Assembly: GCA_918797485.1 (NCBI GenBank)
Contig: CAKKNE010000004.1
Location: 5,208,001 to 5,272,000, forward strand
DNA length: 64,000 bases
Source of the DNA: Pelagomonas calceolata
Taxonomy: Eukaryota
Direction of reading: 5' to 3'
Shown here: piece after piece, positions 1 to 63,339 of the stretch
Numbering within the stretch: position 1 is the first letter of the stretch
Layout of the letters: every line of letters starts with the position of its first letter
The notes under the pieces: generated by a model
Seen by the model: the letters and a program-made list of their open reading frames with translations, nothing else
What the model was told of the DNA's origin: nothing
Database searches by the model: none
Translations under genes and position numbers: made by a program

Positions 1-163
1 TTCTTCACTAAGTCATTCCTCGGCGACGACCCGGCCGTCCTAGCTCGGTCGAGCGGTGAGGAACCGGCATCGCCACGCCGTTGAGCAGGCGTCGCGTCGA
101 TGGCGTGCAGGTCGACGCGACGATTCAACACGAACGCGCCGTAAAATTTTGATTTCCGCACAG
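1..163 (+). mobile_element. Introner copy 1 (5' part outside window)
   Basis: Reverse-orientation match to the 55511-55713 element; ends GTAAAATTTTGATTTCCGCACAG at 163, after which coding sequence resumes (GC ATG GAC GAG...). Confidence 0.9.
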
Positions 164-934
164 GCATGGACGAGGAGACCTCGGACGCGACGATCCAGTC
201 CGAGAGCCCCGGGCCGCGGGCGCCGGCGGACAGAGGTCCCATTTTAAACAGCGCGCGCGCCTGCTGTCTCCCCGACTGTCGGGCGGCGGACGTCGCGGTC
301 GTCGCCTTCTGGCTCGTGTCTGTGTGGAAATCAAATTTACGGCGCTTTCCTCCTGAATCGACGCGTCGACCTTCACGCCATCAACGCGACTGCTCGATGG
401 CGTGGCGGTGTCGGTTCCCCACCGCTCGACGGAGCCAGCGCGGCCACGTCATCGCCGAGAAATGACTTATGTGTCGATATCGCCCTCGCCTCGAACCTGG
501 CGCTCGCAAACAGCGCCTACATACCCTACGCCGTCCCGACGACGTTCGTCGTCGTCGTGAGCTGCGTGACGGCCCTCTGGTTGCTAGTGCGGGTCTTCAC
601 ACGGGGCAGCCGCGCCATCTCGACCACGGGAGCGACCTACTTGGATCTGCACCTCTTTTGCGTCTACATCGCGGGCGTCGCGCTCGTGATCGCAATCGTG
701 TTGGGTCTCACGCTCGGGCCCGACAAGGCGCGCAAAGTTTCGCGACGTTACGACGACGAGGGCGCCGGCGACGACGAGCGCGTCTTTCGCGAGGGCGCGT
801 ACGTTCGCTGCGGGCTCCTCGCGTTGGTCCTCGCGGTCTTCGGCCTCGGCGTCCGGCTTCGTAGGGTCGCCGGCGCGCCCACGACGCGCCGGCTCGTGTC
901 GAGGTCCATCGAACTCACGTCGCACGCGAGTTAG
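164..934 (+). CDS. 3' part of a multi-pass membrane protein of unknown function, interrupted by introners
   Basis: ORF 166-315 (..DVAVVAFWL) joins the frame of ORF 557-934 (CVDIALASNL..hydrophobic helices) if a phase-2 intron from 312 or 318 to AG 459 or 513 is removed. Confidence 0.6.
320..469 (+). mobile_element. Introner copy 2, right TIR deleted
   Basis: Starts CTGTGTGGAAATCAAATTTAC and follows the consensus to GAGAAATGACTTA; the right end and most of the right TSD are missing. Confidence 0.85.
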
Positions 935-6696: not shown

Positions 6697-8160
6697 ATGG
6701 CCGCGCTCGAAGAAAAGTTGGCCGCGCTCTCGACGCACCCCCCAAAATTCGCGGTCCGCGGCCGCTTCGTCCACGCGAACGCGCGGCGCGCGGGCCTCAT
6801 CGAGTTCGTCGAGGACGGGCTGATCGTCGTCGAGGACGGCGCCATTATTGCCGTGGCCAAGGACGCGGACCAAATCAAGGCCGTGCTGGCGGAGCACCGG
6901 CCCCAGGACGTCGTCGAGCTGGCCGAGACGGAGTTCCTCGCCCCCGGCATGGTCGACTGCCACGTGCACGCGCCGCAGTACGCCTACTCGGGCACGGCGA
7001 CGGACAAGCCCCTCATGGAGTGGCTCCAGCACTACACGTTCCCCGCCGAGAAGCGGTGCGTCGACGTCGACTACGCGAAGACGCTGTACAGCGCGCTCGT
7101 CGACCGGCTGCTCATGCAGGGCACGACCTGCGTCGCTTTATATGCCACGATCCACGTGCCCGCGACGAACGCGCTCGTCGACATCTGCCTCGAGAAAGGA
7201 TTAAGGGCGGTCGTGGGCAAGGTCTGCATGGACCGGCACGGCGGCGACGGCTACGAGGAGACGACGGCGGAGGCGCTCGCGGGCACGCGGGCCTGCCTCG
7301 ACTACATACGGAAGGCGCAGCCCGGCGCGTCCGGATTATCGCGGCTCGTGCAGCCGTGCGTGATCCCGCGGTTCATCCCGACGTGCACGCCCGAGCTCCT
7401 CGCGGGTTTGGGGGACATCGCGCGGGAATCCGACGACGTCTGGGTCCAGAGCCACGCGTCGGAAGCTCCCGACCAGGTCAAGTTCGTCGACACGCTCCAT
7501 CCCGGAAAGAGGTGCACGGAGATCTTCGAGTCGCACGGGCTGCTGACGGACAAGTGCGTCATGGCGCACTGCGTCTACCTCGAGGACGGCGAGCTCGACA
7601 CCTTCGCGCGCAAGGGCGCCGGCGTCGCGTGCTGCCCCCTGAGCAACGCCATCTTCTCGCTCTCGCCGGGCTGGCACGCGTTCCCGTTCCACAAGGCCCA
7701 CGCCAAGGGCGTGCGCGTGGGCATGGGCACGGACATCGCCGGCGGCTATGCCGCGTCCATCCTCGTGGCCTGCCGCCACGCCGCCGTCGCGTCCAAAGCC
7801 TGTGCAGAAATCAACGTCGCGTCGATGGCGTGGAAGCGTGGGGCGCCCGAAATTTGATTTTCACGCAGGTCTAAGCACGACATGGGCGAGAAGGACGTCG
7901 ACTACAAGGACGCGTTCTGGGCCGCGACGCTCGGCGGGGCCCGCGCCCTGGGCCTGGACACGGTCCTCGGCAACTTCGAGGTGGGCAAGCAGTTCGACGC
8001 GGTGCGCATCAACTGCGAGGCGGGCAACTACGACACGTTCCCCTCGGCGATCCACCCGTGCTGCCCGTCGCGGCTGGAGCACGACTTCGAGAAGTTCGTG
8101 AACCTCGGCGACGACCGCAACATCGCGAGCGTCTACGTCCAGGGCAAGCGGCGCCGCTGA
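6697..8160 (+). CDS. Guanine deaminase (amidohydrolase); exons 6697-7790, 7869-8160
   Basis: PGMVDCHVHAPQY, PRFIPTCT, QSHASE, MAHCVYL, CPLSN, GMGTDIAGG, ATLGGARALGL, GNFEVGKQFDA, GDDRNI; spliced length 461 aa. Confidence 0.92.
7800..7868 (+). mobile_element. Introner copy 3 (subfamily B); intron 7791-7868 GT-AG
   Basis: TIR-like ends CTGTGCAGAAATCAA / TTGATTTTCACGCAG; flanks GTCCAAAGC and GTCTAAGC; splicing restores ..AVA SKHDMGEK. Confidence 0.9.
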
Positions 8161-12588: not shown

Positions 12589-15500
12589 ATGGGCCGCTGC
12601 CCGGCGGAAGGCCTGGAGGCGAGCATCCACGTGCTCTTCCTCTTCGGCGTGGCCGCCTTTTTGGCCTGGGACAGGTACAAGCGCGACGACCTGGACCGGC
12701 CGAATAGAAAACAGGCCGACTGGGCGACGGCGCTCGCGCGCTTCGTGTGCCGCCGGCCGCTGGGCATCGTCTCCATTATTGCTGCTTACGCCGCGTACCT
12801 CTCGCTCGCGGCGTTCGTCGACGTCGACTGCCTCGAGGCGCGCTCCTTGCACCTCGTGACGGCGCTCGAGCAGTACGCCCGCCAGGACGAGGTCACGTCC
12901 TACAACCTGGACAACTGGGAGAGCGCCCAGAAGGCGTCGGTTTCCGCGGGCCTCTGCGCGCCGGCGCGCCGGCGCCTCGCCGCCGTCGGCGACACGGAGC
13001 ACTTGAAACTATTCTACGCGGCGCGGAACCGGCCGGCCGACGTCATCACCGCGAAGTCGCTCCTGGACGCGCGCATCCTCGAGGGGCGCGTCACGAGCGA
13101 CGACGGCTTCGACGACCACTGCTACGTCGCCGGCGGGGCCGGCGGCGCGAACCGCCGGTGCTCGAACGCCGCCGTGCGCAGCTGGACCGACCCCTTCTTC
13201 GCGGGCGGCGCCGTCGTCTCCAATATTGACGCGGCGGCCGCCGAGTTCGCGGAGTCGGCCGAGGGCCGCTACTTCTTCGACGTCTTCTTCACCATCAAGA
13301 ATCCTACAAGCAACGTGTCGCGGTCCGAGATCTTCTTCAGCCTCACGGACCGCGAGGCCTTTCGACAGTGGGCCAAGGACTACCTCCTCCCGACGCGCGG
13401 CGCGGCGCAGAAATCAGCCGGGAGCACGTCGCGTCGATGGCGTGCACACGAGAGTTCCCACACACAGGCTCGAACGGGCGTCGACGGCGGACACGCGCGT
13501 CTGCTGGCTCAACGGCGACGTGAACGACATTGAAGTGGAGGAGGCCGTGACGCACGACGCGCTCCTGGCCATCGGGTCGCTCATCTTCGTCTACCTCTGC
13601 ATGATCGTCCACACGCGCAGCCCGATCGTCGCGACGGTGGCCATGGCGCAGGTGCTGGCGTCGGTGCCGATCGGCGTCTACCTCCACCGGGCGCTCTTCC
13701 ACGTCGACCAGTTCTACGTGCTGAACTTCCTGGGGCTCTTCATCATCGCGGGCATCGGCGCGGACGACAGCTTCCTGCTCTTCGACGTCTGGAAGGCCGA
13801 GGTGGATCGCGGGCCGTCGCGGACGCTGCCGGAGATTTTGGCGGCCGCGTACCGGGCCGCGGGCGCGTCCATGGCCGTCACGTCGATAAGTAGCGCGGCG
13901 TCGTTCTTCGCCAACACCTACTCGACGCTGCCGGCGCTGCGGTCCTTCGGCATCTTCTGCGGCACGCTGATCATGGTCAACTTCGCCTTCGTCATGCTCG
14001 TCTTCCCGGCCGCGCTCGTCATGCGGAGCCGCATGCGGCCGCCGGCCGAGGACGCGCGCGTCGACGTCGGCGGCGAGGACGTCGTCGACGCGTCGTCCGT
14101 GCAGGTGCTGGAGCGGCCGGCGACACCCACGGGCGACGAGGGCGACGCGAACCCCCTCGCCCTGCGCGCCGCGCCGGCGGCGCGCTCGCGTTCGCGCTCG
14201 GACGACGACGAGGAGCGGGAGCCCCTGAACCTCTGGGGCCGCGTGGCCGTGGTCCTGGCGACGCCGGCGGAGCTCGCCGAGGCCTACCAGCGCTTCAAGA
14301 GCTGGGCCGCGATCGACAAGTTCTTCGGGCGCACGCTCCCGACGGCGGTGAAGCGCTTCCACAAGGTCATCCTCGTCGCGGCGCTGGCCCTGGCGGTCAT
14401 GGGCTTCGCGTCGACGGCGGCCGAGCTCAAGGCCGACGACGAGCCGCCGCGCTTCTTCCATCGCTCGCACAACCTCGGGCTGGTCTACGAGCTCAGCGAG
14501 GACTACTTCGCGGCGGGCGCCGAGCGGGGGCTCTCCTCCGCCGGCGGCGTCGTCAACGTCGACGTCGAGGCGCCGACGCCGGGCCCGACGCCGCGCCCGG
14601 TCGCCGCGCCGTCCGCGCCGACGCCGTCGCAGACCACCCCCAGCGCAAAGCCGACCGTGCAGCCCCTCCCCCAGCCCACGCCCCGGCCCACGCCCGAGCC
14701 CACGCCCAAGGCCAGCAACCCGACGGGGGCGCCCGTCTTCGCGCCGACGCCAAAGCCGACGCCGCTCCCCACGCCGCGGCCCTCTTCCGTGGTGCCGGCG
14801 CCCACGCCGCCCGTCGGGCCCGTCGCCCCGCAGCCGACGGCCGCGCCGACAATCCTAACGGACGAACGATTCTGCAACGGCGCGGGCACGAGTTATTACG
14901 ACGACGGCGGCGCCATTAAGTGCGAGTGCTTCGCGGGCTTTGCGGGCACGCGGTGCGAGACCCAGGACGTCCAGTATCTGGATCCCGGCGCCATGGTCAC
15001 CCTCGACCTCGTCCACGGCCTCAAGCAGCGGCCCGGCAAGCCGACGGCGCGGTACCGCTTCGGCAAGCCGCGGTACCGGGGCGCCTTCGACCTGGCCGAG
15101 CCGGAGGCCCAGGTTTATGTGAGGGACACGTGCCTGAAGGCCGTCGGCAAGTCGAAACTCAAAGCCAACGCCGTGCATAGCATCTGCGTGCTCTCCATCT
15201 TCGAGACGGATTTTCTGGCGCCGATGGGGCTGGCGCTCCCATTGGGTAGGGACGACTTCCGGAACCTCTTCGCCGAGTTCCGGCAGTCGAACGTGCTGCT
15301 CGACGGATCGCGCGTCGAGGAGTGGATCGGCTTCGACTGCGCGACGAACGAGGCGACGTGGGTCCGCGACAACATCGTGCTGACGGTCCGCAAAGATGCG
15401 GCGGTCGAGGACCGACTCGACGTATTCCAGGAATGGCGCGACTACCTGGACGACCGCGCAAGCGGGCGGCCGGCCGGCGTCGGAAGAGCATTACTTGCCT

Positions 15501-22290: not shown

Positions 22291-22342
22291 GCACAGCTGC
22301 AAAGCGCACAGCTGCAAAGCGCACAGCTGCAAAGCGCACAGC
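22291..22342. repeat. 15-bp tandem repeat GCACAGCTGCAAAGC x3+ in the 5' leader
   Basis: Directly visible upstream of ATG 22369. Confidence 0.9.
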
Positions 22343-22368
22343 CGGCACGCCGCAGCGATAAATAAACC

Positions 22369-22788
22369 ATGGCGAAAAAGGGTGGCCACCGCACGAAATC
22401 GAAACCGGGCTCGGGCTCGAAGATCAAAAAGTACAAGCGCGGCCGCGACACCAAGCGGCGGCGGCGCGACGTCGAGCAAGTCTTCGACGACATGACGAAG
22501 AAGGAGCAGCTCGAAACGGCGCAGCCCTTCGATGATGACCTGCCGGGCTGCGGCCAGTTCTACTGCGTCGAGACGGCGCGATACTTCGTGGACCAGAAGG
22601 CGCTCGACGACCACAAGAAGTCGCGGGCCTACAAGCGGCGCGTCAAGGAGCTCAAGGAGGAGACGCCCTTCACGCAGAAAGATGCGGAGGCCGCGGCGGG
22701 CATGACAAAGGAGCGGCTGCCGAGCGCGGCGGAGTCGCGAGCTAAAGCCGAGGCGAAGAAGGGCCACCGCATGACGGACGATGATTAA
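22369..22788 (+). CDS. BUD20: Zinc finger protein 593 / Bud20 (60S biogenesis)
   Basis: RRRDVEQV..DDDLPGCGQFYCVETARYF..HKKSRAYKRRVKELKE..PFTQKDAEAAAG. Confidence 0.92.
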   Translation: MAKKGGHRTKSKPGSGSKIKKYKRGRDTKRRRRDVEQVFDDMTKKEQLETAQPFDDDLPGCGQFYCVETARYFVDQKALDDHKKSRAYKRRVKELKEETPFTQKDAEAAAGMTKERLPSAAESRAKAEAKKGHRMTDDD

Positions 22789-22959
22789 CAACTGTGTGTG
22801 TAATAGACGCATACGGCTCGCGTGATAACGCTTGCGTGCGGGGCCCGTTAGCGCCGCGGCGCGGCAGTGGCAGCGTGCGTGCGGTATCGTCGTCACCTGG
22901 ACGCCACAGTGGGGCAGCCCGCGCCATGCGTACGACAAAAAAAGCATGAGTGGTGGGGC

Positions 22960-25142
22960 ATGAACGTGCGGCGCCCACCGGAAGCACCGGACGACCTGCG
23001 GCGCCGGCCCGGGAGGGCGTTCTCGTCGAAGTATGCCCTGGAGCTGCCACCGCCCGTCAGCGGCAGCTTCGCGACGCTCCCCCGGCGCCGCGCAGCGGTG
23101 GCGAAGAAGCAGGCGGAGCTCCGGCGCCAGGCGCTGGTCGAAGTTGCACTGGAGCGCCAGATCTGGCTCGAGAACGCGGAGAAGGACCGCATTGCGCGGA
23201 CCATCGTCCGCATCGCGCGGCGCCTGGACGGGGAGCGCCGGGCTGTGATTGCTCGGGAGGACGCGGCCTTCCGCGCCGGCGCGCGCGAGGCCGCCGTGGC
23301 GATCGAAACGTGCTGGCGCCGGCACGCGCGGTCGAGCGCCTGGCCGCGCGTCAAGGCCGCTTATTTTAGGGTCCTGGACGCGTGGGCGCAGCTGTACCGC
23401 GCCGCGCGCGAGGACGCGGCGCTGCGAGCGCGGCGACGGGCGGCGCGGGCACAGGTCGCGACGCCGCTCCAGACCCTGTGGCGCGCGCGCCTCGCGCGCC
23501 GCGAGCTGGCGCGGCGGCGACGCGCGCGCGACCTCATGACGAGATTCATCACTGAAGGAGTCATACCGCTCCAGACCAAGTGCCGCATGCTCCTCGCGCG
23601 CCGCGAGCTTTTACGGCGGCGGCGCGAGCTCGAGCGGCGGCGCCGCGCGGAGCGCGCGCGGCAGCAGGCCTACGTCATCGCGACGCGCGCGGTGCGGCGG
23701 TGGCTGCGGTGGCGGTTCCTCCAGAAGGTCCGGCGGTGCGTGCATCTCCACCTCGCGCGGCACCGGCTGCTGCAGCGATCCATGCAAACCGTCGCGAGCG
23801 CGGTCGCGCGACCGCCGGTCCGCGAGGCGGTCGCGCTCGTCGCGGTCGCAACTGCGTGCGCGGGCGCTTCCATGAGCGAGGCGGTCGCGGTCGCCGCGGA
23901 GCGGGAGCGCGTCGCCGAAGAGCAGCGCCGCTGGGAGGAGGAACTGCGACGCCAGATCGCCGCGGCCATCGAAGCGGCCAAGGCCCGCGTCGCGACGCCG
24001 CTCCAGACCCGGTTCCGCGCGCGGCGCGCGCGGCGGCGCTACGTCGCGATCTGTGTGGAAATCAAAATTTTACGGCGCGTAGGCGTCGCGTCGATGGCGT
24101 GGTGATGCCGGTTCCTCACACAGGTCGCGATGCGGGCCGCCGCGGTGCGCATCGCGGGCTGGCGGCGGCGGCTGGCCTGGGCGCGGTTGTGCGCGGCCGA
24201 GGCACGGCGGCGCGAGGAGGAACGGCAACGGCGCGCGCTGCAGGTGATCTGGAAGGTCGTCGTCCCGTGGCTGGCGCGGCGGGCGCTGCGATTTAAGAAG
24301 CGGCGCCTCGCGGTGCTGCGAGGGATGATCCGGGTCAAGGGCTACGCGCGGCGGCAGGCGACGCGCCAGGATCACTGGTGGGACCTGGCCGGCGAGCGCG
24401 CGCTCGACGTCGCCGGGGAGAGCTACCGGGCGGCGAAGGAGGCCGCTCGCCTCGCGACGGCCATGGCGCAGCACGCCGTCACGGTCTGTGTGGAAATCAA
24501 AATTTTACGGCGCGTTCGTGCTGAATCGCCGCGTCGTCCTCCACGCCATCGATGCGACGCCTGCTCGATGGCGTGGCGACGCCGGTTCCTCACTGCACGA
24601 CGGAGCCACCAAAGGTAGCGTCATCGCCGAGAAATGACGTAGTGAAGAATTATCGGGTGCACCCAACGCACTGGTTGATTTCCACACAGGTCACGGTGTG
24701 GAAACAGACCCAGGAGCTCGACCGCCGCCTGAACATGCTCATGATCGCGCGCGCGCAGCGCCTCGCCGCGCGGGCGGCGAAGCGGGTGCGCGAGATCGAC
24801 CTCAGCGGCGTCCCCAAGTTCTGCCGGACCCTGCCGCGCCGGTTCGCGCTGAAGCGCTTCGAGGACGAGCGGTTGCAGATCCTACAGCGGAGCACGCAAC
24901 GGGTCGCGTTCCTGAGGCAGCTCGCGGCCCGCGCGCCGAAGCCGGCCGAGGCCGCGCCCGCGCCCGTTTTCAAGCCGCGGTGGAAGAAGCCGCGGACACG
25001 GCCGCCACCGCCGGAGCCGGAACCGGCCGCGCCGCCCGCGCGACGAGCGACGCGGCTGCTCAGCGCCGTGCGGTGGGGGCGCATCCAGGCGGTGCACGCG
25101 GGGACGGCGCCGACGAGGCCTCCGCCGCCGCCGCCTTGCTGA
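22960..25142 (+). CDS. Arg-rich protein with IQ-like repeats; exons 22960-24042, 24124-24477, 24690-25142
   Basis: Repeated VATPLQTxxRARxARR motifs; three ORFs join exactly on removing two introners (629 aa). Confidence 0.75.
24051..24123 (+). mobile_element. Introner copy 5 (internally deleted); intron 24043-24123 GT-AG
   Basis: Perfect TSD GTCGCGAT at 24043-24050 and 24124-24131. Confidence 0.95.
24486..24689 (+). mobile_element. Full-length introner copy 6 (204 bp); intron 24478-24689 GT-AG
   Basis: Perfect 15-bp TIRs; perfect TSD GTCACGGT at 24478-24485 and 24690-24697. Confidence 0.97.
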
Positions 25143-25285
25143 AACGCCGAGTAATTTGAGATTGTTAGTGAACCTTGACACTACCGCACCACCCTGCACT
25201 GTTCCGGGTGAACCGAAATTGGTGAAGTGCACGTCAAACCCAAGCCGGTACGCAATCACAGCGGCGGACAAAACCCGTCCGTAGT

Positions 25286-25309
25286 GCTAGTGTCTTACAC
25301 GCCGCTAGC
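25286..25309 (+). promoter_or_regulatory. Recurrent upstream motif GCTAGTGTCTTACACGCCGCTAGC
   Basis: 116 bp upstream of ATG 25426. Confidence 0.55.
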
Positions 25310-25425
25310 TCGCGAAGCGCAAAAAAAAGCTCGCACAGCTCGCACAGAGCTCAGCACCCCAGCTTTGCTGCCTCGGGCTACAGCCGCACAGCTCGCGCAC
25401 AGCTCGCACTGGTCGTTTTGCAGCA

Positions 25426-26589
25426 ATGCCACCGCTTAAGCTAGTAGAGCTGGTCAAGCAGAGAGGACAGTCGTCGAGCACTACTGCTCGCAAGGCGTTC
25501 GTGAATGCTGCAGCCGCCACAGCTGCCAAAGAGCAGGGCAACAAATTACTGGCGCAAAATGACCTCTTAGCCGCGTACGCGCAATACTCCGCCGGCCTGG
25601 CGAGCGCCGACGCGAGCGACGCGGCAAAACTTTTCGGCAACCGCTCCGCCGCGGCGCTCAAGCTAGGCTGGCCCGACGCCGCGATCGAGGACGCCTGCGC
25701 CGCGGTTTCGGCGGACGTAACTTATGCGAGAGGTTGGTTCCGCCTGGCGGCCGCGCTCGTCGAGGCCGGCGATCCGCTCGCGACCGATGCGTGCGGGTAC
25801 GCCGCCGACCTGGCGCCGCGGGACCCGGGGCCGGCGCGGCTGTTCGAGCGCGCGCGCCACGAGGACGCGGAGCGCTACAAACCTGGGAAGGCGACGATGG
25901 TCGCCGTCGCCGTGGCGCCCGCGCCCGCGGAGACCGAGGAGACAGATGCCGCCGACGACAGCGACGCCAGCGACGGCGACGACGCGTCGGAGCGCGTCGT
26001 CAGCCTCGCCCTCGCGACGCGCACGCAAACGAGCGGCGGGACTGTGTGGGACGCGTCGGTCCTGCTGGCGTCGTGGCTCGCGACGGATCCAACGATCGTG
26101 CGGGGGCGCAACGTCCTGGAGCTGGGCGCTGGCTGCGGCGCCGTCGGCCTGAGCTGCGCGGCGCTCGGCGCCCGCCACGTGGCGCTGACTGATTTTGATG
26201 CCGGCGTCGTGGAACTGTTGAAGGAGAACGCGCGGAACAACTATCTCCGCGCGGGCTGCGACTGCTATGAGCTCGACGTGGCGAAGCCACCTACAGAGCC
26301 GCGTGCGGAATTCGACCTCGTGGTCGGCTCCGAGTGCGTGTACTACGGTGCCTGCGACGCCGTGCCGGCCCTTGTCGAGGCGTCAGTCGGCAAGGACGGT
26401 GACTTGTGCGGCGTTTTCTGCATGGCCGACTCGCGCGCCGGCATCGACGCGTTCGCGACCGCCGCGCGGAAGCGCTTCCGCTACGAGCGGCGGCCGTTCC
26501 CGCGGCCGCTCCGGCGCCGCGCGCGGCGGCTCAACGCCGAGCTCGCGGCCGAGAACACGTACAGCCTGCACCTCCTCTATCGCATGTAA
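25426..26589 (+). CDS. TPR domain + seven-beta-strand lysine methyltransferase (METTL21/Methyltransf_16)
   Basis: KEQGNKLL..GNRSAAALKLG TPRs; SGGTVWDASVLLA, VLELGAGCG, VALTDF, DLVVGSECVY. Confidence 0.88.
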   Translation: MPPLKLVELVKQRGQSSSTTARKAFVNAAAATAAKEQGNKLLAQNDLLAAYAQYSAGLASADASDAAKLFGNRSAAALKLGWPDAAIEDACAAVSADVTYARGWFRLAAALVEAGDPLATDACGYAADLAPRDPGPARLFERARHEDAERYKPGKATMVAVAVAPAPAETEETDAADDSDASDGDDASERVVSLALATRTQTSGGTVWDASVLLASWLATDPTIVRGRNVLELGAGCGAVGLSCAALGARHVALTDFDAGVVELLKENARNNYLRAGCDCYELDVAKPPTEPRAEFDLVVGSECVYYGACDAVPALVEASVGKDGDLCGVFCMADSRAGIDAFATAARKRFRYERRPFPRPLRRRARRLNAELAAENTYSLHLLYRM

Positions 26590-26590
26590 C

Positions 26591-26654
26591 CCGCTCCGGC
26601 GCCGGGCGCGGCGGCTCAATGCCGTATGGCCTGCACCTCCTCTATCGAATGTAG
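26591..26654 (+). repeat. Diverged tandem copy of the last exon segment (26506-26589)
   Basis: CCGCTCCGGCGCCG..CTGCACCTCCTCTATCG.ATGTA repeated right after the stop, with a 20-bp deletion. Confidence 0.85.
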
Positions 26655-26688
26655 TAATTGTACTTTTCTATCAACTTGAAAAGGGTCC

Positions 26689-28080
26689 TTATTCCTCTAG
26701 CCCGAGCGCCCGCCGCCGTTCGGCGTCGACCACGAGGATCGGAGTCGGCGGCGCGTCCCCGCGCTGGCGCGCAAGCCGCTCGGTGGCCTCGGTGACGTGG
26801 GCCAGCATGTCGTGGAGCGCGTTCGCGAAGATATGTTTCTGTGCTTTCATGTGGTGCTTGGCGCAGCCGCCCGGCGCGTCGGGGACGGACTCGTCGCCGT
26901 CCCGCTCCAGCGTGCGCAGGTGTTCGACGATCGCCTTCTGTGGCGTCAACCGGGGCGCGCACGCGTGCGCCCTGAGCGGGTCGGCGCCTGCGTCGAGCAG
27001 TGCCTTGACGACGGCGACCCGGCGCTGCGGCAGCTCCGGGTCGCTGCCGCCCGCGGGGCTCCGCCCGAGCCAGCAACATGGGCACAAAACGTCGCCGTCG
27101 TGCCAGACTCCACAACCCATTAATAACGGCGGCCCGACGGCGCGGCCCGCGTCGGGGTCCGCGCCGGCCGCCAGCAGGGCCTCGACGCCGCGCGCCGCGC
27201 CGTTGTGGACCACGTTCGACAGCGGACTGCTCGGGTCCGCGTCGCCGCCGCGAACATCGGCGCCGCGCGCGAGGAGCAACCTCAAGATCTTCATCGAAGC
27301 GTCCGAGTCGTCGGCGGCGTCGGCCCACGTCGTCAGCGCCGAGGGCAGGTACGCCTTGGACCGGTTCACGTCGACCTCGGGCCGGTCGGCGAGGACCCGG
27401 GCGCAGACGCTCGGCGCGAGCGTCCACTCGACGGCGCACGTCACGGCGAGGTACGGCGGCAGCGCCACGCACAGCTTCGCCAGCGCCGCGTTCACGTCCG
27501 GCGGCGCGCCCCGCCCCAGCTTCGTCGTCCAGTCGTTCGCCTCGCCGCGGCAGTGCACCGTCAGCGACTCGAGCTCCGGCAGCGCGCCGTGGCGCAGCGC
27601 GTCGGCCAGGCCGCCGAGGGCCTGCGCCACGACGCCCTCGGACTCGACGTCGCTCTGGAAGCTGCAGAAGAGGTCGATGACCTCCCAGGACCGCCGCGAC
27701 GCCGTCGCCAGGCCGGCGAGGTGCAGGAGCGCCTCGGGCGTCTCGATCGCGAGCGTCACCTGCCGCGCGCGGCTCAGGCGCAGCCAGACGGCGGGCTGCC
27801 AGAGCACGTGCCGGGCCTTGTCGCGGTCGGGCGCGTGCTCCGCGACCTTGCGCTGCTCGACGACCGAGAGGAAGGGCACGGCGTCGTTGAAGAGCTTGGC
27901 CACGCAGGTGTAGTACATGACGTGCTCGATGAGCAGGTGGTCGAGGATCGGCGCGACGAGCGACGGCCAGACGCGGCGGTTCAGGGGCCGCGGGTCCGCG
28001 ACGACCGCGGCGCGCTTGGGCGCGCGGCGGTGGCGCGCGCGCGGGCGTTTGTGGTCCTTTGTTTTGTTGGACTTGGGCAT
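26689..28080 (-). CDS. Ankyrin-repeat protein
   Basis: ILRLLLARGADV, GVEALLAAGADPD, VVKALLDAGADP. Confidence 0.8.
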   Translation of the reverse strand: MPKSNKTKDHKRPRARHRRAPKRAAVVADPRPLNRRVWPSLVAPILDHLLIEHVMYYTCVAKLFNDAVPFLSVVEQRKVAEHAPDRDKARHVLWQPAVWLRLSRARQVTLAIETPEALLHLAGLATASRRSWEVIDLFCSFQSDVESEGVVAQALGGLADALRHGALPELESLTVHCRGEANDWTTKLGRGAPPDVNAALAKLCVALPPYLAVTCAVEWTLAPSVCARVLADRPEVDVNRSKAYLPSALTTWADAADDSDASMKILRLLLARGADVRGGDADPSSPLSNVVHNGAARGVEALLAAGADPDAGRAVGPPLLMGCGVWHDGDVLCPCCWLGRSPAGGSDPELPQRRVAVVKALLDAGADPLRAHACAPRLTPQKAIVEHLRTLERDGDESVPDAPGGCAKHHMKAQKHIFANALHDMLAHVTEATERLARQRGDAPPTPILVVDAERRRALGLEE

Positions 28081-28320: not shown

Positions 28321-28342
28321 CTAGCGTATGTAACACACTTGC
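28321..28342 (-). promoter_or_regulatory. Variant upstream motif (GCAAGTGTGTTACATACGCTAG on minus)
   Basis: About 240 bp upstream of minus-strand ATG 28080. Confidence 0.4.
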
Positions 28343-30289: not shown

Positions 30290-33200
30290 TTACCCGTTCT
30301 CGAGCTCCACCGAGAGCCCGTCGTACGGCCCGAGCCCGTACATGTTCTCGAGCGTGTCGTCCGCACCGCCGCCGTTGGGGTCGAAGAGCCACGACAAAAA
30401 GTCGTAGAACTGGTACGCGTTGGCAAAATGACCAGCCGTCTGGCCGCCCTTGTTCTGGTGATTCGGGTTGGCGCCCTTCTCGACCAGGAGCTTCGCGATC
30501 TTGACGTTTCCGTTCTGGGCTGCTACGTGTAACATAGTGTTACCGTGTTCGTTCACCTTATTGAGATTGAACGTCTCACGTTCGTAGGCATCGACGTAGG
30601 CGGTACCAAAGTCTTCGACGTAGGGCACCTTGACGATGGCCGGGTCGAACTTCTTCTTGGCAATCGGCGCCAGCGCGTCCTTGAGGCGCGAGACCTTGCC
30701 GTGCCTTACTAAAGCCATGACCTGTGTGGACATCAAATTTACGGCGCGTTCGTCCTGAATCGCCGCGTCGACCTCCACGCCATCGACACCTGCTCGATGG
30801 CGTGGCGAAGTCGGTTCTTCACACAGGCCATTACCTCGTCGAAGTCGAGCGGCTTCTCCTCCTCCTCCGCCGCCTCCTCGCCCTCTGCAGCGCCGGTCTT
30901 CGAGTACTGGTCGAGCGGCGTCGCGCCCGCGGCGGCCACGCCGGTCTGGCCAGTCTGCATGAAGACGCGCATTTGCTTGTTCCTTTCTTGTTCGCTCGCT
31001 CTTAATTTGGTAGTCATGTTCAAAATCTTCTTCCGGTGTAAGCGGTGCTCGATACCTGTGAAAATCAAAATTTTACGGCGCGTTCGTGCTGAATCATCGC
31101 GTCATCCTCCACGCCATCGACGCGTCACCTGCTCGATGGCGTGGCGATGTCGGACACAGCTCAATACCTAACGTATTGCGCAAATCGTCATCGTCCAGAT
31201 CGTAGAGGAACGCGCCGTCGACTGCCGCGTCGACGAAGGCCTCGCGGTATTGGCCCAGCGACAGCGTCTGGAGCCATCTGGCGACGTCGTCAACCGACCA
31301 AGCAGAAACCTTCAACGTTTCCTGTCCTGGCATCTGGCCGGGCTTGAGCGACGGCTTGAAATCCTCGCCGCCGAGCTTGTCCTGGTAGGCCGTGGGCCCG
31401 CCCTCGATGCTCTGGGCCGGACCCGCGCCGCCCCCGCCGCCCATGGCCTGGTTCTGGTGGAGCGCCGCCATGACTGTGTCCTGCGTCGACACCGTGCGCA
31501 TCGCCCGGATCATGTTCAGCGACGAGAAGTAGGTCATGCTCATGGACATGAAGCCGAACTTCATGAGCGTCTCCGTCGACTGCATGAGCTGCGCCGCCTG
31601 CTTCTTCTCCGCCACCGAGGGGCCGGAATAACCGCCGCCGCCGCCTCCGCCCACACCGCCTGCCGTCGCCAAAGCCAGCGCGTTCGCGTCGCCCTTGCGC
31701 GCCTGCTCGAGGAGATCGCCCCGCGCCTCCTGTCGCCGTCTTATCTTGTGCAATTCGCGCTGCTGCTCCTCCAACAAGACGACGAGCTTGCGCTCGAGCG
31801 TCCGCAGTTGCTCCTCCTTGCCCTGGCGCGCATGGTCGAGCGTCGCGAGCTTCCCCTCCAGACCGCCCAGCTTCTCGCGCCGCTCCGCGATCTTCGCCAG
31901 CATCGCGCCGAACTCCCGGTCCAGCCGCATCTTCTGCTCCCTTAATTCATATTTTGCCTCCTCGTCGAGCACGCCGACGGCCTCGGCCTCGATCTTCGAC
32001 AGCTGGTGCATCTCCTTCTCGAGCTGCGCGACGCCCTGCTCGAACTCGGATATCTCCTCGAGCAGCGCCTCGACGCTCTCCTCGGCGGCGACCTTCTCCT
32101 GCGTCAGCAGCGACACCTCGCTCTGGAGCCGGGTCGCGTGGAGTTTGTGCTCCAAAAGCATTTGTCTCCCAAATTCGATGCCCTGCGACTGCGACTTCGA
32201 GAAGAGGAACTTGTGCCTCTCGTTTTGCGCCCGCCGTCTTCCGAGGTGTCCGCGGTACGCGCGCTCGACCGTCCGCGCCGCGTAGGAGCGGTTCCGCAGC
32301 TCGAACGTCGCGTAGCGCGCCGTCACCTGCCGCCAGAGCGTTTGAAGCATTGTGGCCGCCCGGTGCCGCCGCTGCTGCATGCCCTGGACCAGCAGCCGCG
32401 CCAGCAAGCCGCGTGCGGTCCGTTGCATCTGCGCCGCCGCCGCGTGCCTGTGCACAAATCAACCAGTGAGTCGAGTGCACGACGGGAACGCGGTCGTGCT
32501 GACTCGGTCGAGCGGTGAGGAACCGGCACCGCCACGCAGTCGAGCAGGCGTCGCGTCGATGGCGTGGAGGTCGACGCGACGATTCGAAGGCGCCGTGAAA
32601 TTTCATTGATGCACAGCGACGTGCATCGTCTTCAGAAGGGTAAAGAAGCCCCTGCCGCTAAAGCCGCGCCAGGCCCGCTGGATGACGTGCGCCGCCCAGA
32701 TCTGCCGCATCTTCACGAGGAAGGCCTGGCGCCCGCGCCAGCCCCGGTAGGCCCGCTGCAGCATGACCGTCGCGCGCTCCTCGCGCAGCCGCCGCACGAC
32801 GGTCCACGCGAGGTGGTTCCGGAAGCAGGCCTGGATCGTCTTCGCGGCGAACTCGAGGCGCTGGAGCCGCTTCTTGTTCCGTTTCAAGCGCCAGGCCATG
32901 TACTCCTTGACCTCGGGGTACTCCTGCGGGTTCGGGTAGATGTGCGAGCCCTCGCCGGGCTTGTAGACGACGTTGTCCTGGCGCTCGAAGGCCGGGTTCC
33001 GCGGGTCGAGGACCGTCTTGAGCGGCGCGTCGTCGCGGCGCTTCCGCGTCTTCACGGACGCGAGCGGGTCCTCGGCCTCGGCCGCGGCGCGCCGCCGGCC
33101 CAGCGCCGCGCCCGCGCGCTCCGCCGACAGGTTCGAGAAGTGGACCCAGTCCGGGTCCCCGTACGCCGCGTTGTGCCCTATTTTGGAGTCGCGCACCTTG

Positions 33201-52509: not shown

Positions 52510-54065
52510 CTAGGAGGAACTAGGCATATCGTCCGAGTCGTGCAGGTAGCCGGTCACGTTCCGCGACGCGCGCACCAGCTCGACGCCGCGCGTCGCGTAC
52601 CACTCGGCCATCTCTGTCCTGGCCTTGGACGCCGCGCTGTCGGAGTACGACTTCGTCCACGCGTCCCTCCGGCCGGGGAGGCCGTGCGACGCGCGGAACA
52701 CGTCCACGACGCCGGCCGCGAACTTTTCACCCCGCAAAGAGCAATAGCCGGGCAGCCAATCCGGGTAGCCGTAGCCCTCCGCGTTCATCTCGACGTCCGC
52801 CAAGTCGTGGAAACAGTGATAGGCATTGGGGGTGAACGCCGTCGCGAAGAGCTCTACTTTCGCCACGCGTCGACCGACGGCGCCGTTCGTGAGCTTCTGT
52901 GGCCTGTGCACAAATGAATCAGTGATTCGGGTGCGCCGCGACAATTTGATTCATGCACTGATCGAGGCCGCATCTCCGGGAAGCGGCGGCCGTGGGCCCT
53001 GCGGATCGCCGGCGACGCGACGTCCAGGTCGTTGCGGGCCGCGATCCGGAAAAAAGGCTTGGCGTCGAACTCGCCGGCGAAGAGCCGCACGTCGTCTAGT
53101 ACAACCTAGGTAGAAATCAAAATTCACCTCGACTGCTCGATGGCGCGGCGGTGCCGGTTCATCACCACTCGACGGAGCCAGGACGGCCGCGAGCACCCGG
53201 CTCACTGGTTGATTTCCACACAGATCACGACGAAGACCCACCGCACGCCCAGCGCCTGGACGTGCGCCGGCAGGACGAACTTGAGCTGCGCCACGTAGCC
53301 GCCCGTCCCCTTCGTCGGCACGCGCGGCACGTCGCACGCCTCGCTCAGGTAGGGCCTGCGTGCAAGTCGACCGGTGAGGCAAGCGCCGCGAAATTTGTCT
53401 TTGCGCGCTGGGTCGGGCAGGCGCGGGCCGTCCTCCTCCCCGTCGATGGGGCCGTCGATGGCCTCGTCGAGGTCGGGGTCGTCGCCGCAGCGCTGCCACG
53501 TCGGCACGATGCAGGCGCGGGGGCGGAGCATCGCCCAGTTGCGCCGCGCGACCTGCACGCGCCCGGCGTCCAGCAGCCCCGGCACGACCAGCAGCACGTC
53601 GAGCGCGCCGGCGTCGACGACCGGCCGTCGCGCGGACGCGGCGCAGCGCCGCGTCGCCGCCGCCTTGCGCTCGGCGGCGTCGACCGTCGGCCGGGGCGTC
53701 GGCCGTGGCGTCGGGCTCGGAGTTGGCGTGTTGAGCGCGACCGGCGCCGGCGTCCGCTTCGTCCGGCGCCGGCGCCGCCCCTCGCCTCCCTGGCACGTGC
53801 CGATGCCGTACGCGGCGCGCCACGCCTTCTTAAAGTTGCAGTCGTCGTCGACATCGCACTCCCTGTCCTGGTTCGTGCACCTGCCCTTCTTGCGCGGCGT
53901 GGCCGGCGCGGCGGCCGGCAGCGGAACACCGCCGGCAGAAACACCATCCCCGGACGGTTCGGCGCCCGCGAACGGCAAGGTCAGGAGCTCTTTGAGTGAC
54001 TGTGCGCTGGCCTGCAGCAGGAGCGCTGCGGCGGACACCACTTTGAGCAAGGCAGCGCCCCGCAT
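52510..54065 (-). CDS. Secreted protein, possibly DUF707/glycosyltransferase-like; exons 54065-53419, 53355-53232, 53105-52969, 52903-52510
   Basis: Signal peptide MRGAALLKVVSAAALLLQASA; spliced 433 aa with VFVVLDD, VASPAI, VELFATAF..C..GYG pattern. Confidence 0.65.
52904..52960 (-). mobile_element. Degenerate introner copy 10; intron 52968-52904 GC-AG
   Basis: CTGTGCACAAATGAATCAGTG..AATTTGATTCATGCACTG; splice joins PEMR to PQKLTNG. Confidence 0.78.
53106..53223 (-). mobile_element. Introner copy 11; intron 53231-53106 GT-AG
   Basis: Intact TIR TTGATTTCCACACAG, other end CTAGGTAGAAATCAA; splice gives WVF VVLDD. Confidence 0.9.
53356..53410 (-). mobile_element. Old introner copy 12; 63-nt in-frame intron 53418-53356 GC-AG
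   Basis: TSD GGTAGGGC / GGTCGGGC (7/8); ends CTGCGTGCAAGTCGACCGGTGAG and GCGCCGCGAAATTTG resemble copy 9. Confidence 0.72.
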
Positions 54066-54764: not shown

Positions 54765-56321
54765 TTACCTTCTAGTAAGAACGCCGACACAAATGCGCTC
54801 GAGCCGGTCCGCGAAGGCGTCGAGCGAAAACAAGTCCCGGACCCGCTCGCGGCCGCGCTCCCCCATGGCCCGCCGCCCCGCCGCGTCGCCGAGGAGGTCG
54901 GCGACGGCCCGGGCCCAGGTTTGGGGATCGGGCGCCAGGAGCCGCCCGGTCACGCCGTCGACGACGGACTCGCGCGGCCCGCCCGAGTCCACGGCGACGA
55001 CGGGCGTGCGCGCGTGCATCGCCTCGAGCGGCACGATGCCGAAGTGCTCGTTCTCCGGCCTGTGTTGCAGCGTGAGGCCCCGCGTCGATGGCGTTTGCAG
55101 GGGACGCCGCGTCCGCGCGTATACAGCAGGCACGCGCAGCGCGCGAGGAGCCGCGCCTTCTCGTCGCCGGAGACGGACCGGCGCTGCGTGACGCGGTCCG
55201 CGACGCCGAGCCGCGCGGCCAGCTCCTCGAGCTCGCGCGCGTGCTCGACGTTCTCCGGCAGGTCGGGGTCGTAGCCCCCCGCGAGCACGAGGCGGACGCG
55301 CGGCGGCAGCAGCGCGAGCGCCTCGACGGCCAGGCCCAGGTTCTTCTTCCGCTCGAAGCGGTTGATCGAGAGGAGCAGCGCCGCGTCCCGCGGCGCCTCC
55401 GCCACCTCGGCGTCAAGGCTCAGGGGCGGGTAGAGCACCTCGGGCGCCACGGCGAGCCGGGGGAACGCCCGGCGGAAGACGCCCGCCGTGAACCGCGAGT
55501 TCACGAGCACCTGTGTGGAAATCAAAATTTTACGGCGCGTTCGTGCTGAACCGTCGCGTCGTCCTCCACGCCATCGACGCGACGCCTGCTCGATGGCGTG
55601 GCGGTGCCGGTTCGTCACCGCTCGACGGAGCCGGCACGGCCGCGTCATCGCCGAGAAATGACTTAATGAAGAATTTTCGGGTGCACCCGACGCACTGGTT
55701 GATTTCCACACAGACGAGCACGACGTCCGCGAGGCCCGTGCACGTCTCCTCGCCCCAGTCCAGCGGCGCGCGGTAGAGGCGCGTGAGCGGGTTTTGTCGG
55801 TTCACGCAGAGCAGTTTGTCCGGGTAGTGGCAGTAGAAGACGACCGGCGCGGCGCACGCCGCCCGGGCGACGGGCACGGCCGTCGCGACCTGGTCCACGA
55901 CGACGACGTCCGGGCCGTCGCGCGCGGCGCGCAGCGCGACCGCGACCATCCGCACCGAGGCGCAGAGCGCGTAGCACCTTCCGAGAATCCGCTTCGGCAG
56001 CCAGTCGCCGGCGACGACGACGCGCAGCGTGCCGTCGCGGGTCTCGTCGAAGCAGCGCCGCGGGTCGTGCCGCGCCGTGTAGATCGTCACGTCGTGGCCC
56101 CGGCCCCGCAGGCCGAGCGCCGCGTCGACGACGAGCCGCTCCGCGCCGCCGATGCCGAGGTCCGGGTGGGCGAAGGCGACGCGCAGCTTGCCTTGGCGTG
56201 GTTTTGGTCGTCGGCGGCGACGCCTTACGAGTCGTATGAGCAGCATTGCGGCTGCTGCAGCGGCCAGCAGGAGCCAAGTTAGCTGGCAGCGGTGTAATGC
56301 TTTCTTGCACAGCAGAGACAT
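54765..56321 (-). CDS. ALG2: Alpha-1,3/1,6-mannosyltransferase ALG2; exons 56321-55722, 55510-55119, 55059-54765
   Basis: HPDLGIGGAERLVVDAA, FYCHYPD, VLVNSRFT, SINRFERKKN, LLYTPENEHFGIVPLEAM, SGGPRES. Confidence 0.95.
55060..55110 (-). mobile_element. Highly degenerate introner copy 13; intron 55118-55060 GC-AG
   Basis: Retains CTGTG end and CGCGTCGATGGCGT core; removal restores conserved YTPENEHFG. Confidence 0.7.
55511..55713 (-). mobile_element. Full-length introner copy 14 (203 bp); intron 55721-55511 GT-AG
   Basis: Perfect 15-bp TIRs; perfect TSD ACGAGCAC at 55503-55510 and 55714-55721. Confidence 0.97.
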
Positions 56322-60901: not shown

Positions 60902-63339
60902 TTACTCCTTCCCCGTGTCGAACAAGCGCGCCTTCTCCGACAGGTTCCGCGCCCGCGAGGCGTCTTCGACAATGTCGTCGGGTACCTCATAGTCATCGTC
61001 AGTAACGCCGACGGACGCCCCGAACAGGCAGAACTCCAGCAGCCCCGCCACGTCGCCGTCGTCGACGGTTTTGACGTCGACGGAGAACAGGGACCGGTGT
61101 GAGACTGCCGCGTCCGGCGGGTCATTCGCGAGGTGTACGACGAGCGTCTTCGCCTTCGGGTACCTCTTCTTCAGGAGCTCGCAGCACGCGACGAGGTCCT
61201 GGGCGCCGTCCTCATCCAACGAATCCCCCGTCAGGGGGCAGTTCACGAACGACCCGCACGCGCCGCGGGCCTGTGTGGAATCAAATTTCGGGCGCCCCAC
61301 GCCATAATTCGCAGGATAGCCTAACTCACTGGTTGATTTCCACACAGCCGCGGACCCCATCCCTATAAACAAAGCACACGGCCGCACCCTCCTCCCTCAG
61401 CGCGGCGTCGAGCCGGATCACGCGTCCCGCCAGGTCGTCCAACACTTCGCACTGCGCGCTCACGGGGTCGTCGAACTGAAAGTTATCGACGGACGCCCAC
61501 TTCGTGCGGTGGTTGTAGGCGAAGCGCCGCACGTCGTCGTCGGTCTCGCGCCGCGCGTTCACCGTTGAGTCGTCCGGGCACGGGTCGCCGCGGGCCCGCG
61601 GGCGCCGCGGCGTCGGGTCGCAGACGTAGCGGCCCGTGCGCTCGTCCTGCGCGAGGTAGACGAAGTCGCGCGCGTCGACGCACTTGCCCGCGTGCAGGCC
61701 GCGACGCCGTCGTCCAATGGAAAGGAGCCGGGCTTGCACTCCCTTCTACATTCGTCGAGCCACGCGGCCGCGGCTTGATCCGAACCGGCGGCGATGACGC
61801 GCCAGCGCGGCCCCGCGAGCAGCGTCTCCGCCAGCACCGGGAGGCCGCGGCCCGCCGCGCGGCACCGCTCCGTGAAGCGGTCCGCGAGGCCGCGCGGCGC
61901 GCCCGCGAGCGGGTTGCCGCAGAGCCGGAGCGCCTTTAATGGTAACGCCGCGAGCGCCGCCGGGATTTGCTTGAGGAGGTTGTCGCGCACGTCGAGCTCC
62001 TCGAGCTTCGTGAGCTGTATAATGTTCTCTGGGAGCGCTTTCAGCTGATTCCCGCGGGCCCTGCGCGGAAAGCGACCGGTCACGTCGCTTCACAAAGAAG
62101 AGGGACGTACCTGAGACAGACCAGGTTACAAAACTGGCCGCAGATTTCGTCGGGCAGCGCCGCGAGCCCGGCCCGGTCGAGGTAGAGGCGCCGGAGGCGC
62201 GCGGGGAACGCCAGAGCTTGCGGCGCAAAGGCCGCGAATGGCGCGTCGCACAAAGACAGCGCGCCGTGGTCCCGGGGCGCTCGCGCGCGGCCCTCGTCGG
62301 CCGCGGCCCACCACGCGCGCTCGAGCGCCGTCCGCGGCGCGCTCCCTTCCGTCTTCGTCCACGGCTTCCGGTCGCCCGCGTACTGCACGACGACGGCGTC
62401 GTCGGGCCACACTGCATTAAGGTCCCGCTCGCCCGGCCGCGGCCGCCAGTTGTACCGGAAGGGCAGGCGCTGCCCAGCGACGTCCTTCTCGAACCAGTCG
62501 TCGAAGAACTCGTTCAGGAAGCCGCCGACGTCATTTGAGGGCGTCTTCGGCGCGAGCTTGAGCATGGCCTCGAGCGTATTTGACGAGGGCGTCAGGACCA
62601 GGACGCCGCCGTCGAAGGTGTCCGGCGGGTAGAGCGCCGGCGCCGCCGCGAACGCGACGTCGCGGCACGTCGCGAAGAGCTGGTCCGCGCTCCCGACGAC
62701 GAGGCAGTCCGCGTCCAGATACACAATCTTCCCGTAGTCTTCCAGGCCCCAGACCCGTAGCTTCGTCGACCGCACGTCACTCGCATCGCGGGGGTTCTCT
62801 ATGTTCTCCACCTCGACGACGCGCGTCGCGCCGGCGCCCTTGAGCCGCTGGCGCGTCGCTGGCGTGACCGACCGCGCCACCATCGCCACGCGCGCCTTCT
62901 TCGTGTGCTTGGCCAGCGACCGCAGCAGCGCCTCGGCGCCGGGGGCGTAGGCCTCGCTACCGAGGAACGTCGCGTAGGCGTCGGGCCGCGTCTCGGCGGG
63001 CGGCTCGTAGACGGGCCCGTCGTCGTTCGTGTACACCACCCCACCGTTCGCGCGGCACTCCGCCTCGACGCGCGCGCGCTGCGCGGCGGCGTCGCGGTCG
63101 ACGGGGATCTTCGTGCCGCCGTTCTTGGGCGGCGGCCGCGGCAGCTTTGAGGAGGGCGGCACCTTGACCGTCTTCGAGGGCTCGCAGAAGTCGTCGGCGG
63201 CGGCTTTCTCGGGCGGCCGCCGCTCGTTCTCCTCGTCGTCGACGGCGTTCGTCCAGGTGACGCTGCCGCGCGCCTCGCCGTGCGTTAAGGGCACGGCCTT
63301 GGGCGGCGCCGTGTCACTGAGCGGGCGGGCGCGCCACAT
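60902..63339 (-). CDS. Glycogenin-like GT8 glycosyltransferase fused to LRRs and an unknown C-terminal domain (introns 62110-62061 and 61355-61271; unresolved frame change near 61690)
   Basis: AYATFL..Y, TKLRVWGLEDYGKIVYLDAD, FDGGVLVLTPS, LPFRYN, KPW; LRRs LRRLYLDRAGLAALP, LEELDVRDNLLKQIP. Confidence 0.75.
61271..61347 (-). mobile_element. Introner copy 15 (subfamily B); intron 61355-61271 GT-AG
   Basis: TIRs present; TSD CCGCGGGC / CCGCGGAC; splice gives YRDG ARGACGSF. Confidence 0.92.

What the first reader, a model, noticed from the sequence alone, without database searches (positions are those of the whole stretch)
24043..24697. Intron-generating MITE family: TSD supplies the donor, TIR supplies the acceptor (at least 15 copies window-wide)
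Seen: copies at <1-163, 320, 7800, 13403, 24051, 24486, 30722, 31056, 32448, 52904, 53106, 53356, 55060, 55511 and 61271, all inside ORFs. Young copies have perfect 15-bp TIRs and perfect 8-bp TSDs (GTCGCGAT, GTCACGGT, ACGAGCAC). On the host strand the TSD begins GT or GC and the TIR ends CAG, so excising the first TSD plus the element restores the original protein. I checked this by frame arithmetic for six genes and by conserved motifs in ALG2, guanine deaminase and the SAM domain. Established: introner elements of this type are known in pelagophytes, and 8-bp TSDs typify hAT, P and Merlin transposases. Inference: the family built nearly all introns here and was active recently; no transposase lies in the window.
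Basis: partly seen in the sequence, partly recalled or inferred. Interest (0 to 1): 0.88.

Follow-up and report, generated by a model that had tools for sequence, protein, structure and literature searches.

The report
Known algal introner transposon family
These repeats are short, likely transposon-derived elements that sit inside genes of a marine alga (likely Pelagomonas calceolata) and, at the four copies where RNA could show it, are spliced out exactly as introns; this way of making introns is already known.

Summary
All 15 listed copies exist. RNA skips exactly "first 8-bp duplication + element" at 4 of the 5 copies laid at 99% likeness. Related contigs lack the element at orthologous sites, and one carries its own copy where the window has a single 8-bp target. 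Gene order matches Pelagomonas calceolata, for which 956 putative introners are reported (about 210 bp, GT/GC donors, AG, TIRs). The Aureococcus pattern (one site carried, one from an 8-nt TSD, either orientation) is also in print.

Corrections: copy 24051 has only a 7-bp perfect TIR. Copy 320 is not neutral: 106 host residues are missing beside it. "Nearly all introns" fits this window but not the published genome count (about 13%). The closest intact copies are 92% alike, so current activity is not shown. No transposase was found.

Small extras: both focal copies are also spliced from antisense RNA using a donor inside the element (thin support), and the focal sites vary between filled and empty in wild sequences.

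The parts
24043..24123 (+). Predicted sense intron 1 of the IQ-motif gene: TSD (24043-24050) plus a 73-bp shortened element (24051-24123); second TSD at 24124-24131
   Evidence: Sequence. The sense joint is not among the 15 joints listed, but an X9 contig begins exactly at 24124. 28 of 52 environmental proteins run straight across this point.
24478..24689 (+). Sense intron 2 of the IQ-motif gene: TSD (24478-24485) plus a 204-bp element with perfect 15-bp TIRs; second TSD at 24690-24697
   Evidence: Joint 24477>24690, 212 nt, GT..AG, 8 ambiguous letters: one X9 contig (255 letters on the short side) and 1 X22 sense read
24051..24119 (-). Antisense intron in copy 24051: donor inside the element, 4 nt from its end; acceptor in the left TIR; leaves 4 + 8 nt
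   Evidence: Joint 24050>24120, CT..AC, one X3 contig only (197 letters on the short side); no raw reads
24486..24593 (-). Antisense intron in copy 24486: internal GTGAG donor near element position 108, acceptor in the left TIR
   Evidence: Joint 24485>24594, CT..AC, 6 X22 reads with 6 starts on the antisense strand, plus one X3 contig of the same sample; donor motif
22956..25139 (+). Host gene: IQ-motif protein of about 630 aa (position matches Pca_4p27800)
24341..24348 (+). Empty GC-starting target in the window; two environmental proteins read into a reverse-oriented element at this point
   Evidence: P0187, P0190; DNA position inferred from the peptides
1..163 (-). Copy cut by the window edge, reverse orientation, 89.6% to copy 55511; downstream TSD at 164-171 holds the Met codon at 166
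320..470 (+). Copy without right TIR and second TSD; 106 host residues are missing next to it; not a neutral intron
7791..7868 (+). 78-nt GT..AG intron in guanine deaminase (element 7800-7868; intronic TSD copy has one extra base)
   Evidence: Absent from L001, L002, L003, L004; present and longer in L006
8057..8064 (+). Single 8-bp target, empty in the window; L001 carries a 188-nt insertion (element + duplication) here
13395..13467 (+). 73-nt GC..AG intron in the sterol-sensing-domain gene
   Evidence: Exactly these 73 nt are absent from L001
30722..30834 (-). 113-nt GT..AG intron (element 30722-30826, TSD 7/8)
   Evidence: 107 X21 and 118 X22 reads, X3 and X9 contigs
31056..31167 (-). 112-nt GT..AG intron inside the SAM domain (element 31056-31159, TSD 7/8)
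   Evidence: 203 X21 and 205 X22 reads, X3 and X9 contigs
32448..32624 (-). 177-nt GC..AG intron (element 32448-32616, TSD 6/8)
   Evidence: 12 X21 and 17 X22 reads, X3 contig; the 5 ambiguous letters allow this placement
52904..52968 (-). Predicted 65-nt GC..AG intron, old copy, TSD 4/8
   Evidence: Frame only
53106..53231 (-). Predicted 126-nt GT..AG intron, TSD 5/8
   Evidence: Frame only
53356..53418 (-). Predicted 63-nt GC..AG intron, TSD 7/8; in frame and stop-free if retained; family similarity not significant
55060..55118 (-). Predicted 59-nt GC..AG intron in ALG2, TSD 3/8
   Evidence: Frame; the ALG2 motif it restores is recalled, from no call
55511..55721 (-). Predicted 211-nt GT..AG intron in ALG2: 203-bp element, reverse to the host, perfect TIRs, TSD 8/8
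61271..61355 (-). Predicted 85-nt GT..AG intron, TSD 7/8
   Evidence: Frame only
62061..62110 (-).
   Evidence: (scored on a version one base short, 0.215)

Best explanation
This is a family of short non-coding repeats with terminal inverted repeats and 8-bp duplications, likely non-autonomous DNA transposons (introners), whose copies are spliced out of host genes together with one duplication.

Shown: RNA removes first duplication + element at 4 copies; both orientations occur; orthologous sites are empty in relatives; one reciprocal site has a single 8-bp target; the TIR gives an AG at either end.

Inferred: a cut-and-paste transposase supplied in trans inserts the roughly 203-bp element and duplicates 8 bp. 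Insertions in exons survive mainly where the target begins GT or GC on the coding strand. Copies then shrink in place by internal deletion, and the intronic duplication drifts while the exonic one stays constrained by the protein. The family is likely the one already reported for Pelagomonas calceolata. The transposase is not identified.
For: RNA joints at 24477>24690, 30719>30833, 31051>31164 and 32442>32620, each as long as element + 8. Library direction is checked by the flanking genes (table 2). L001, a 30.7-kb contig about 80% identical, lacks 78 nt at 7791 and 73 nt at 13395 and has 188 nt extra at 8057. Of 52 environmental IQ-gene proteins, 14 are open at site 24043 yet read into the element at 24478, 12 read into it at 24043, and 2 have a third site. 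All 13 two-ended copies start GT/GC, against a background of 0.19 per position; boundaries of the old copies were partly chosen with this rule. Element positions are very deeply covered in DNA contigs (X4: up to 1.66 million against about 460-630 on unique contigs; not a copy number). Gene order equals Pca_4p27680-27970. Published descriptions: PMC9481584, 10.1101/2020.10.14.339549, PMC9860276.
Against: No transposase in the window (36 ORFs against Pfam). Only a Tc1-like one appears in the held, cut part of the P. calceolata gene table. The sense joint at 24043 was not listed (2 rows hidden, gene weakly expressed). Six predicted introns rest on frame alone, and 7 copies from 52904 on plus those below 13300 were never laid with RNA. 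Copy 320 sits at a deletion of 106 codons. Open alleles could be precise losses rather than pre-insertion states, and some may be spliced RNA. Sequence identity to the published 956 IEs could not be checked, because the logo figure is not readable.
Confidence: 0.9

Rival explanations
1. The introns spread through an RNA route (reverse splicing or intron transposition), and the 8-bp repeats reflect a target preference or repair, not a transposase cut.
For: No cognate transposase found. The RNA folds stably (z = -4.8), though TIRs and an internal palindrome explain that.
Against: The spliced intron includes one host-derived 8-mer that differs at every site, while the shared sequence starts only after it. 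Copies lie in both orientations to the host. The empty site at 8057 holds one target and the filled one two. Reverse splicing would copy the intron in sense orientation without a duplication (established knowledge, recalled).
Confidence: 0.05
2. The elements are old, immobile relics; filled and empty alleles reflect precise intron loss or mixing of cryptic species, not gain within the species.
For: The closest intact copies are 91.6% alike; a 79% copy sits in a sister-lineage contig; filled alleles at 7791 and 24043 have diverged in length; P0194 looks like an imprecise loss.
Against: Different lineages carry copies at different sites of the same genes (8057 in L001; 24341 in P0187 and P0190), which needs independent gains. 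8/8 TSDs and perfect TIRs survive at two copies. This rival concerns timing, not the mechanism of intron creation.
Confidence: 0.25
3. The repeats are assembly artefacts or unspliced insertions that break the genes.
For: Copy 320 does break its gene, and its deletion was not checked with reads.
Against: DNA contigs of runs X4 and X14 match the window with 0-4 differences and run into the elements; hundreds of RNA reads skip them exactly.
Confidence: 0.02

Closest known systems
Pelagomonas calceolata putative introner elements (Guerin et al. 2022, PMC9481584; seen: passages of main text, Supplementary Note 3 passages, gene-table parts 322-323; Figure S3 logo not seen)
   Same: Same gene order as the window; about 210-bp introns; GT and GC donors, AG acceptor, conserved TIRs; high copy number (956 reported).
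   Different: The passages read do not mention the 8-bp TSD, donor co-option, orientation, empty sites or antisense splicing ('TSD' occurs 0 times in the supplements searched). Sequence identity to their set was not testable.
Aureococcus anophagefferens introner elements (Huff, Zilberman and Roy 2016; paper not held; known here from passages of 10.1101/2020.10.14.339549 and PMC7789003, Table 6 rows of PMC9860276, and recall)
   Same: One splice site carried by the element, the other taken from the TSD; 8-nt cut; either orientation. A 200-bp family with TSD and TIR and about 3% GC donors is listed.
   Different: Different genus: the window's guanine deaminase is 67% identical to the Aureococcus protein. 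GC donors are commoner here (5 of 13). Sequence homology between the families was not tested.
Aureococcus sp. 77-bp introner family 4 (Gozashti et al. 2022, PMC9860276, Fig. 2F legend; seen: passages, one part of the main text, supplementary rows)
   Same: Carries both splice sites and leaves 4 bp of element + 8 bp of TSD; the antisense joint 24050>24120 in the 73-bp copy has the same geometry.
   Different: Here it is seen in an antisense, probably non-coding RNA of a copy whose sense splicing is predicted to be neutral; there it alters a protein.
Polarella glacialis ILE classes 6, 8, 10 (10.1101/2020.10.14.339549, passages) and Micromonas IE presence/absence (PMC4540971, search listing and start of abstract only)
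   Same: 8-nt TSD and both orientations; variation of introner presence among wild populations.
   Different: Unrelated hosts; no sequence comparison made.

Membership tests
Introner (TSD-donor, TIR-acceptor type) | Many sequence-similar copies inside coding genes | tested here: met
   15 copies, 64-92% identical to copy 55511 where aligned
Introner (TSD-donor, TIR-acceptor type) | Spliced from mRNA with no net change | tested here: met
   4 of 5 copies in the stretch have the exact joint; the fifth (24043) is not listed. Exception by sequence: copy 320.
Introner (TSD-donor, TIR-acceptor type) | Constant 8-bp TSD whose first two bases are the donor | tested here: met
   8/8 at three copies, 6-7/8 at five, 3-5/8 at five; 13 of 13 start GT or GC
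Introner (TSD-donor, TIR-acceptor type) | Empty orthologous sites with one target | tested here: met
   7791, 13395, 8057; 24043, 24341, from proteins. At 7791 and 13395 the single target has diverged from the window's TSD.
Introner (TSD-donor, TIR-acceptor type) | Works in either orientation | tested here: met
   RNA joints at forward copies (24486, 32448) and reverse copies (30722, 31056)
MITE (non-autonomous TIR transposon) | Short, TIR-bounded, no coding capacity | tested here: met
   203-204 bp, 15-bp TIRs; no Rfam family
MITE (non-autonomous TIR transposon) | Cognate autonomous element with the same TIRs | tested here: inconclusive
hAT, P or Merlin superfamily | Transposase of that superfamily linked to these TIRs | not testable with these tools
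   No candidate. The held, cut gene table names one Tc1-like transposase and no hAT, MULE, BED or Harbinger term. The 8-bp rule for these superfamilies is recalled.
P. calceolata 956 putative IEs | Host is P. calceolata | tested here: met
   Gene order Sec1 to GT8 matches Pca_4p27680-27970. Caveat: the 80%-identical contig L001 keeps this order too over the part it covers, so it fixes the genus more firmly than the species.
P. calceolata 956 putative IEs | Same sequence as the published IE logo | not testable with these tools
   Figure not held; only the text description matches
Aureococcus-type introner | Insertion into nucleosome linkers | not tested
   No chromatin data

The most novel reading that the evidence does not exclude
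One element is a two-strand splice cassette. The same genomic copy is cut out of sense RNA (TSD donor, right TIR acceptor) and out of antisense RNA (element-borne GTGAG donor, left TIR acceptor). In-place deletion moves that donor to 4 nt from the end, turning the neutral type into the '+12 nt, carries both sites' type. Two published introner mechanisms would then be stages of one family, still segregating as filled and empty alleles in one of the ocean's most abundant algae, so intron gain, shrinkage and loss could be measured in existing metagenomes.
Probability: 0.35. Interest if true: 0.5.

Novelty: already known. Interest (0 to 1): 0.25.

Why it matters
It is a clean worked example of how DNA transposons create introns, with RNA joints and empty sites, but both the mechanism and its presence in this alga are in print. 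The usable part is practical. Filled and empty alleles of the same genes are abundant in public marine sequence, so selection on new introns and their decay can be measured. The mobilising transposase of pelagophyte introners was not named in anything I could read, and these TIRs are a handle to look for it.

Tried and rejected

The first read lay at 88% likeness was swamped by other copies: 631 joints were hidden and no splice joint was visible. The second, at 99%, worked.

Exact TIR-end scans found 0 matches in viral contigs and 0 in prokaryote genomes. Rfam gave 0 matches. The one metagenome scan went to empty sites instead: 5 of its 64 loci were close enough to use.

Aureococcus anophagefferens as host was rejected (67% identity). 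My first idea that copy 320 is spliced at 312-513 was dropped as a neutral intron once alleles with 106 more residues appeared; how that locus is now processed is open. First boundary guesses for 7800, 13403, 52904 (frame), 55060 and 62061 were off and were corrected.

DNA runs X4 and X14 are practically identical to the window and give no empty sites. Two extra Pfam scans failed on stop codons and were dropped.

Huff 2016 is not held. Supplementary Table 8 of PMC9860276 (mobilising elements) was not found in the held, cut file and may bear on the transposase question. No paper on antisense splicing of introners appeared among the 20 listed of 590, nor; that is a weak negative. Earlier scan findings: none.

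Full report
Observation. 24486-24689 is 204 bp with perfect 15-bp TIRs and an 8/8 duplication. 24051-24123 is 73 bp with an 8/8 duplication but only 7 perfectly paired terminal bases. BLAST and a profile search recover the family across the window. The TIR 15-mer occurs 15 times at up to 3 mismatches against 0.39 expected. Identity to the most intact copy (55511) runs from 92% to 64% where aligned. Copy 53356 does not score above shuffles.

Host. The window is a 68% GC, gene-dense eukaryote. Pfam gives Sec1, Na/Ca exchanger, SET, amidohydrolase, AhpC-TSA, U-box, sterol-sensing, myosin and onward to GT8. That order is Pca_4p27680-27970 of the Pelagomonas calceolata gene table. The guanine deaminase is 92-99% identical to unnamed marine proteins and 67% to Aureococcus anophagefferens. 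The host is therefore Pelagomonas, likely P. calceolata; a contig about 80% identical keeps the same order, so the species name is inferred.

Splicing. At 99% likeness on 22300-33300 (15 joints listed, 2 hidden), four joints match element + 8 exactly: 24477>24690 (212 nt; one X9 contig, one X22 read), 30719>30833 (113 nt; 107 and 118 reads), 31051>31164 (112 nt; 203 and 205 reads) and 32442>32620 (177 nt, GC donor; 12 and 17 reads). Two are forward and two reverse to the host. The sense joint for 24043 was not listed, though an X9 contig starts exactly at 24124. Nine listed joints connect different copies or repeats and were read as cross-mapping. X21, X22 and X3 are one sample.

Antisense splicing. 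Two further joints have minus-strand GT..AG ends with no microhomology: 24485>24594 (6 X22 reads, antisense by the direction seen on flanking genes, plus an X3 contig) and 24050>24120 (one X3 contig). Both use a GTGAG donor inside the element and the left TIR as acceptor. That donor is kept in copies 1, 24051, 24486, 32448 and in L001's copy, and is altered in 320, 30722, 53106 and 55511. In the 73-bp copy it lies 4 nt from the end, so 4 + 8 nt stay, the geometry of Fig. 2F in PMC9860276. Support is thin: one sample, X3 only guessed to be RNA, and DNA joints not excluded because rows were hidden.

Empty sites. L001 (30.7-kb contig) lacks exactly 78 nt at 7791 and 73 nt at 13395, and carries a 188-nt insertion at 8057 where the window has one 8-bp target. 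It holds an unspliced element, so it is DNA. L002 and L004 (93-97% over the gene) are empty at 7791, and L006 is filled with a longer version; L002 and L004 could be RNA. Among 52 environmental IQ-gene proteins (cluster members as listed, not a random sample), 14 are open at 24043 but read into the element at 24478, 12 read into it at 24043, 11 are open at both, 10 cover only the later sites and are open there, 2 have a third insertion at about 24341, and 3 are other cases. Of 65 guanine deaminases, 35 read into the element at 7791, 29 are open and 1 is uninformative. Filled alleles differ in length, so short copies likely shrank in place.

Exception. Environmental alleles of the gene at 166-940 have 106 residues between the two window segments. 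Copy 320 has lost its right end, its second duplication and that coding stretch.

Side claims. A codon model finds same-strand gaps at the listed copies, one more intron at 62061-62110 with no significant family similarity, and a frame change near 61697. Weakly biased regions are unresolved. Genome-wide, 956 putative IEs among about 7,500 introns are published; shrunken copies would be missed by that count. Perfect ends and polymorphism show activity within the history of the lineage. A 92% closest pair and a 79% copy in a sister lineage show that it is not new. No transposase was found.

Comparison. PMC9481584 (passages and supplement text) reports P. calceolata IEs of about 210 bp with GT/GC donors, AG and TIRs. 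10.1101/2020.10.14.339549 (passages) describes the Aureococcus pattern as one site carried, one recruited from an 8-nt TSD, in either orientation. PMC9860276 (passages, supplement rows) lists Pelagomonas and Aureococcus families. PMC12130899 (passages) and PMC7789003 (passages) add context only. Huff 2016 was not readable and is cited at second hand. Figures and parts of supplements were not visible and may already hold the TSD, orientation or transposase details.

Verdict. The feature is real and correctly read in its core, and it is already known as a mechanism and very likely as a family. The antisense use of an internal donor, the in-place shrinkage and the wild polymorphism are modest additions. 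Interest 0.25.

Noticed in passing
window 8373-9050, minus strand; stop at 8835-8837: The AhpC/TSA (peroxiredoxin-like) gene has an in-frame TGA at a redox-motif position, with the frame continuing on both sides and the TGA kept in L002: likely selenocysteine (motif reading recalled).
   Followed up: partly
window 1059, 9243, 25286, 28329, 54188, 56429: A 14-bp motif recurs 6 times at up to 2 mismatches (0.07 expected), between genes or near gene starts, often followed by a short palindrome; DNA contigs branch at 25286. A promoter element or a small repeat family.
   Followed up: partly
window 29453-29486: About 30 bp shared with many transcripts from elsewhere (loose ends in more than 100 reads per run); no second copy in the window. 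Another dispersed repeat.
   Followed up: partly
window about 22700-25200, minus strand: Antisense RNA covers much of the IQ-motif gene and exceeds sense reads in X21 and X22; its longest ORFs are 278 aa or less.
   Followed up: partly
window 320-472: Element-adjacent loss of 106 codons from a membrane-protein gene that is whole in environmental alleles.
   Followed up: partly
window about 61697, minus strand: Frame change with no obvious intron between two coding stretches: an indel, an unseen intron or two genes.
   Followed up: no
P0194; P0238, P0261: P0194 has an altered dipeptide at site 24043 while filled at 24478, a possible imprecise-loss footprint. P0238 and P0261 begin with element-derived residues, pointing to further insertions in relatives of the gene at 166-940.
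   Followed up: no
window 30827-30834 and 61348-61355: The intronic TSD copy differs from the exonic one towards a stronger donor (A at +3; GT against GC), but the direction of change is not rooted.
   Followed up: no
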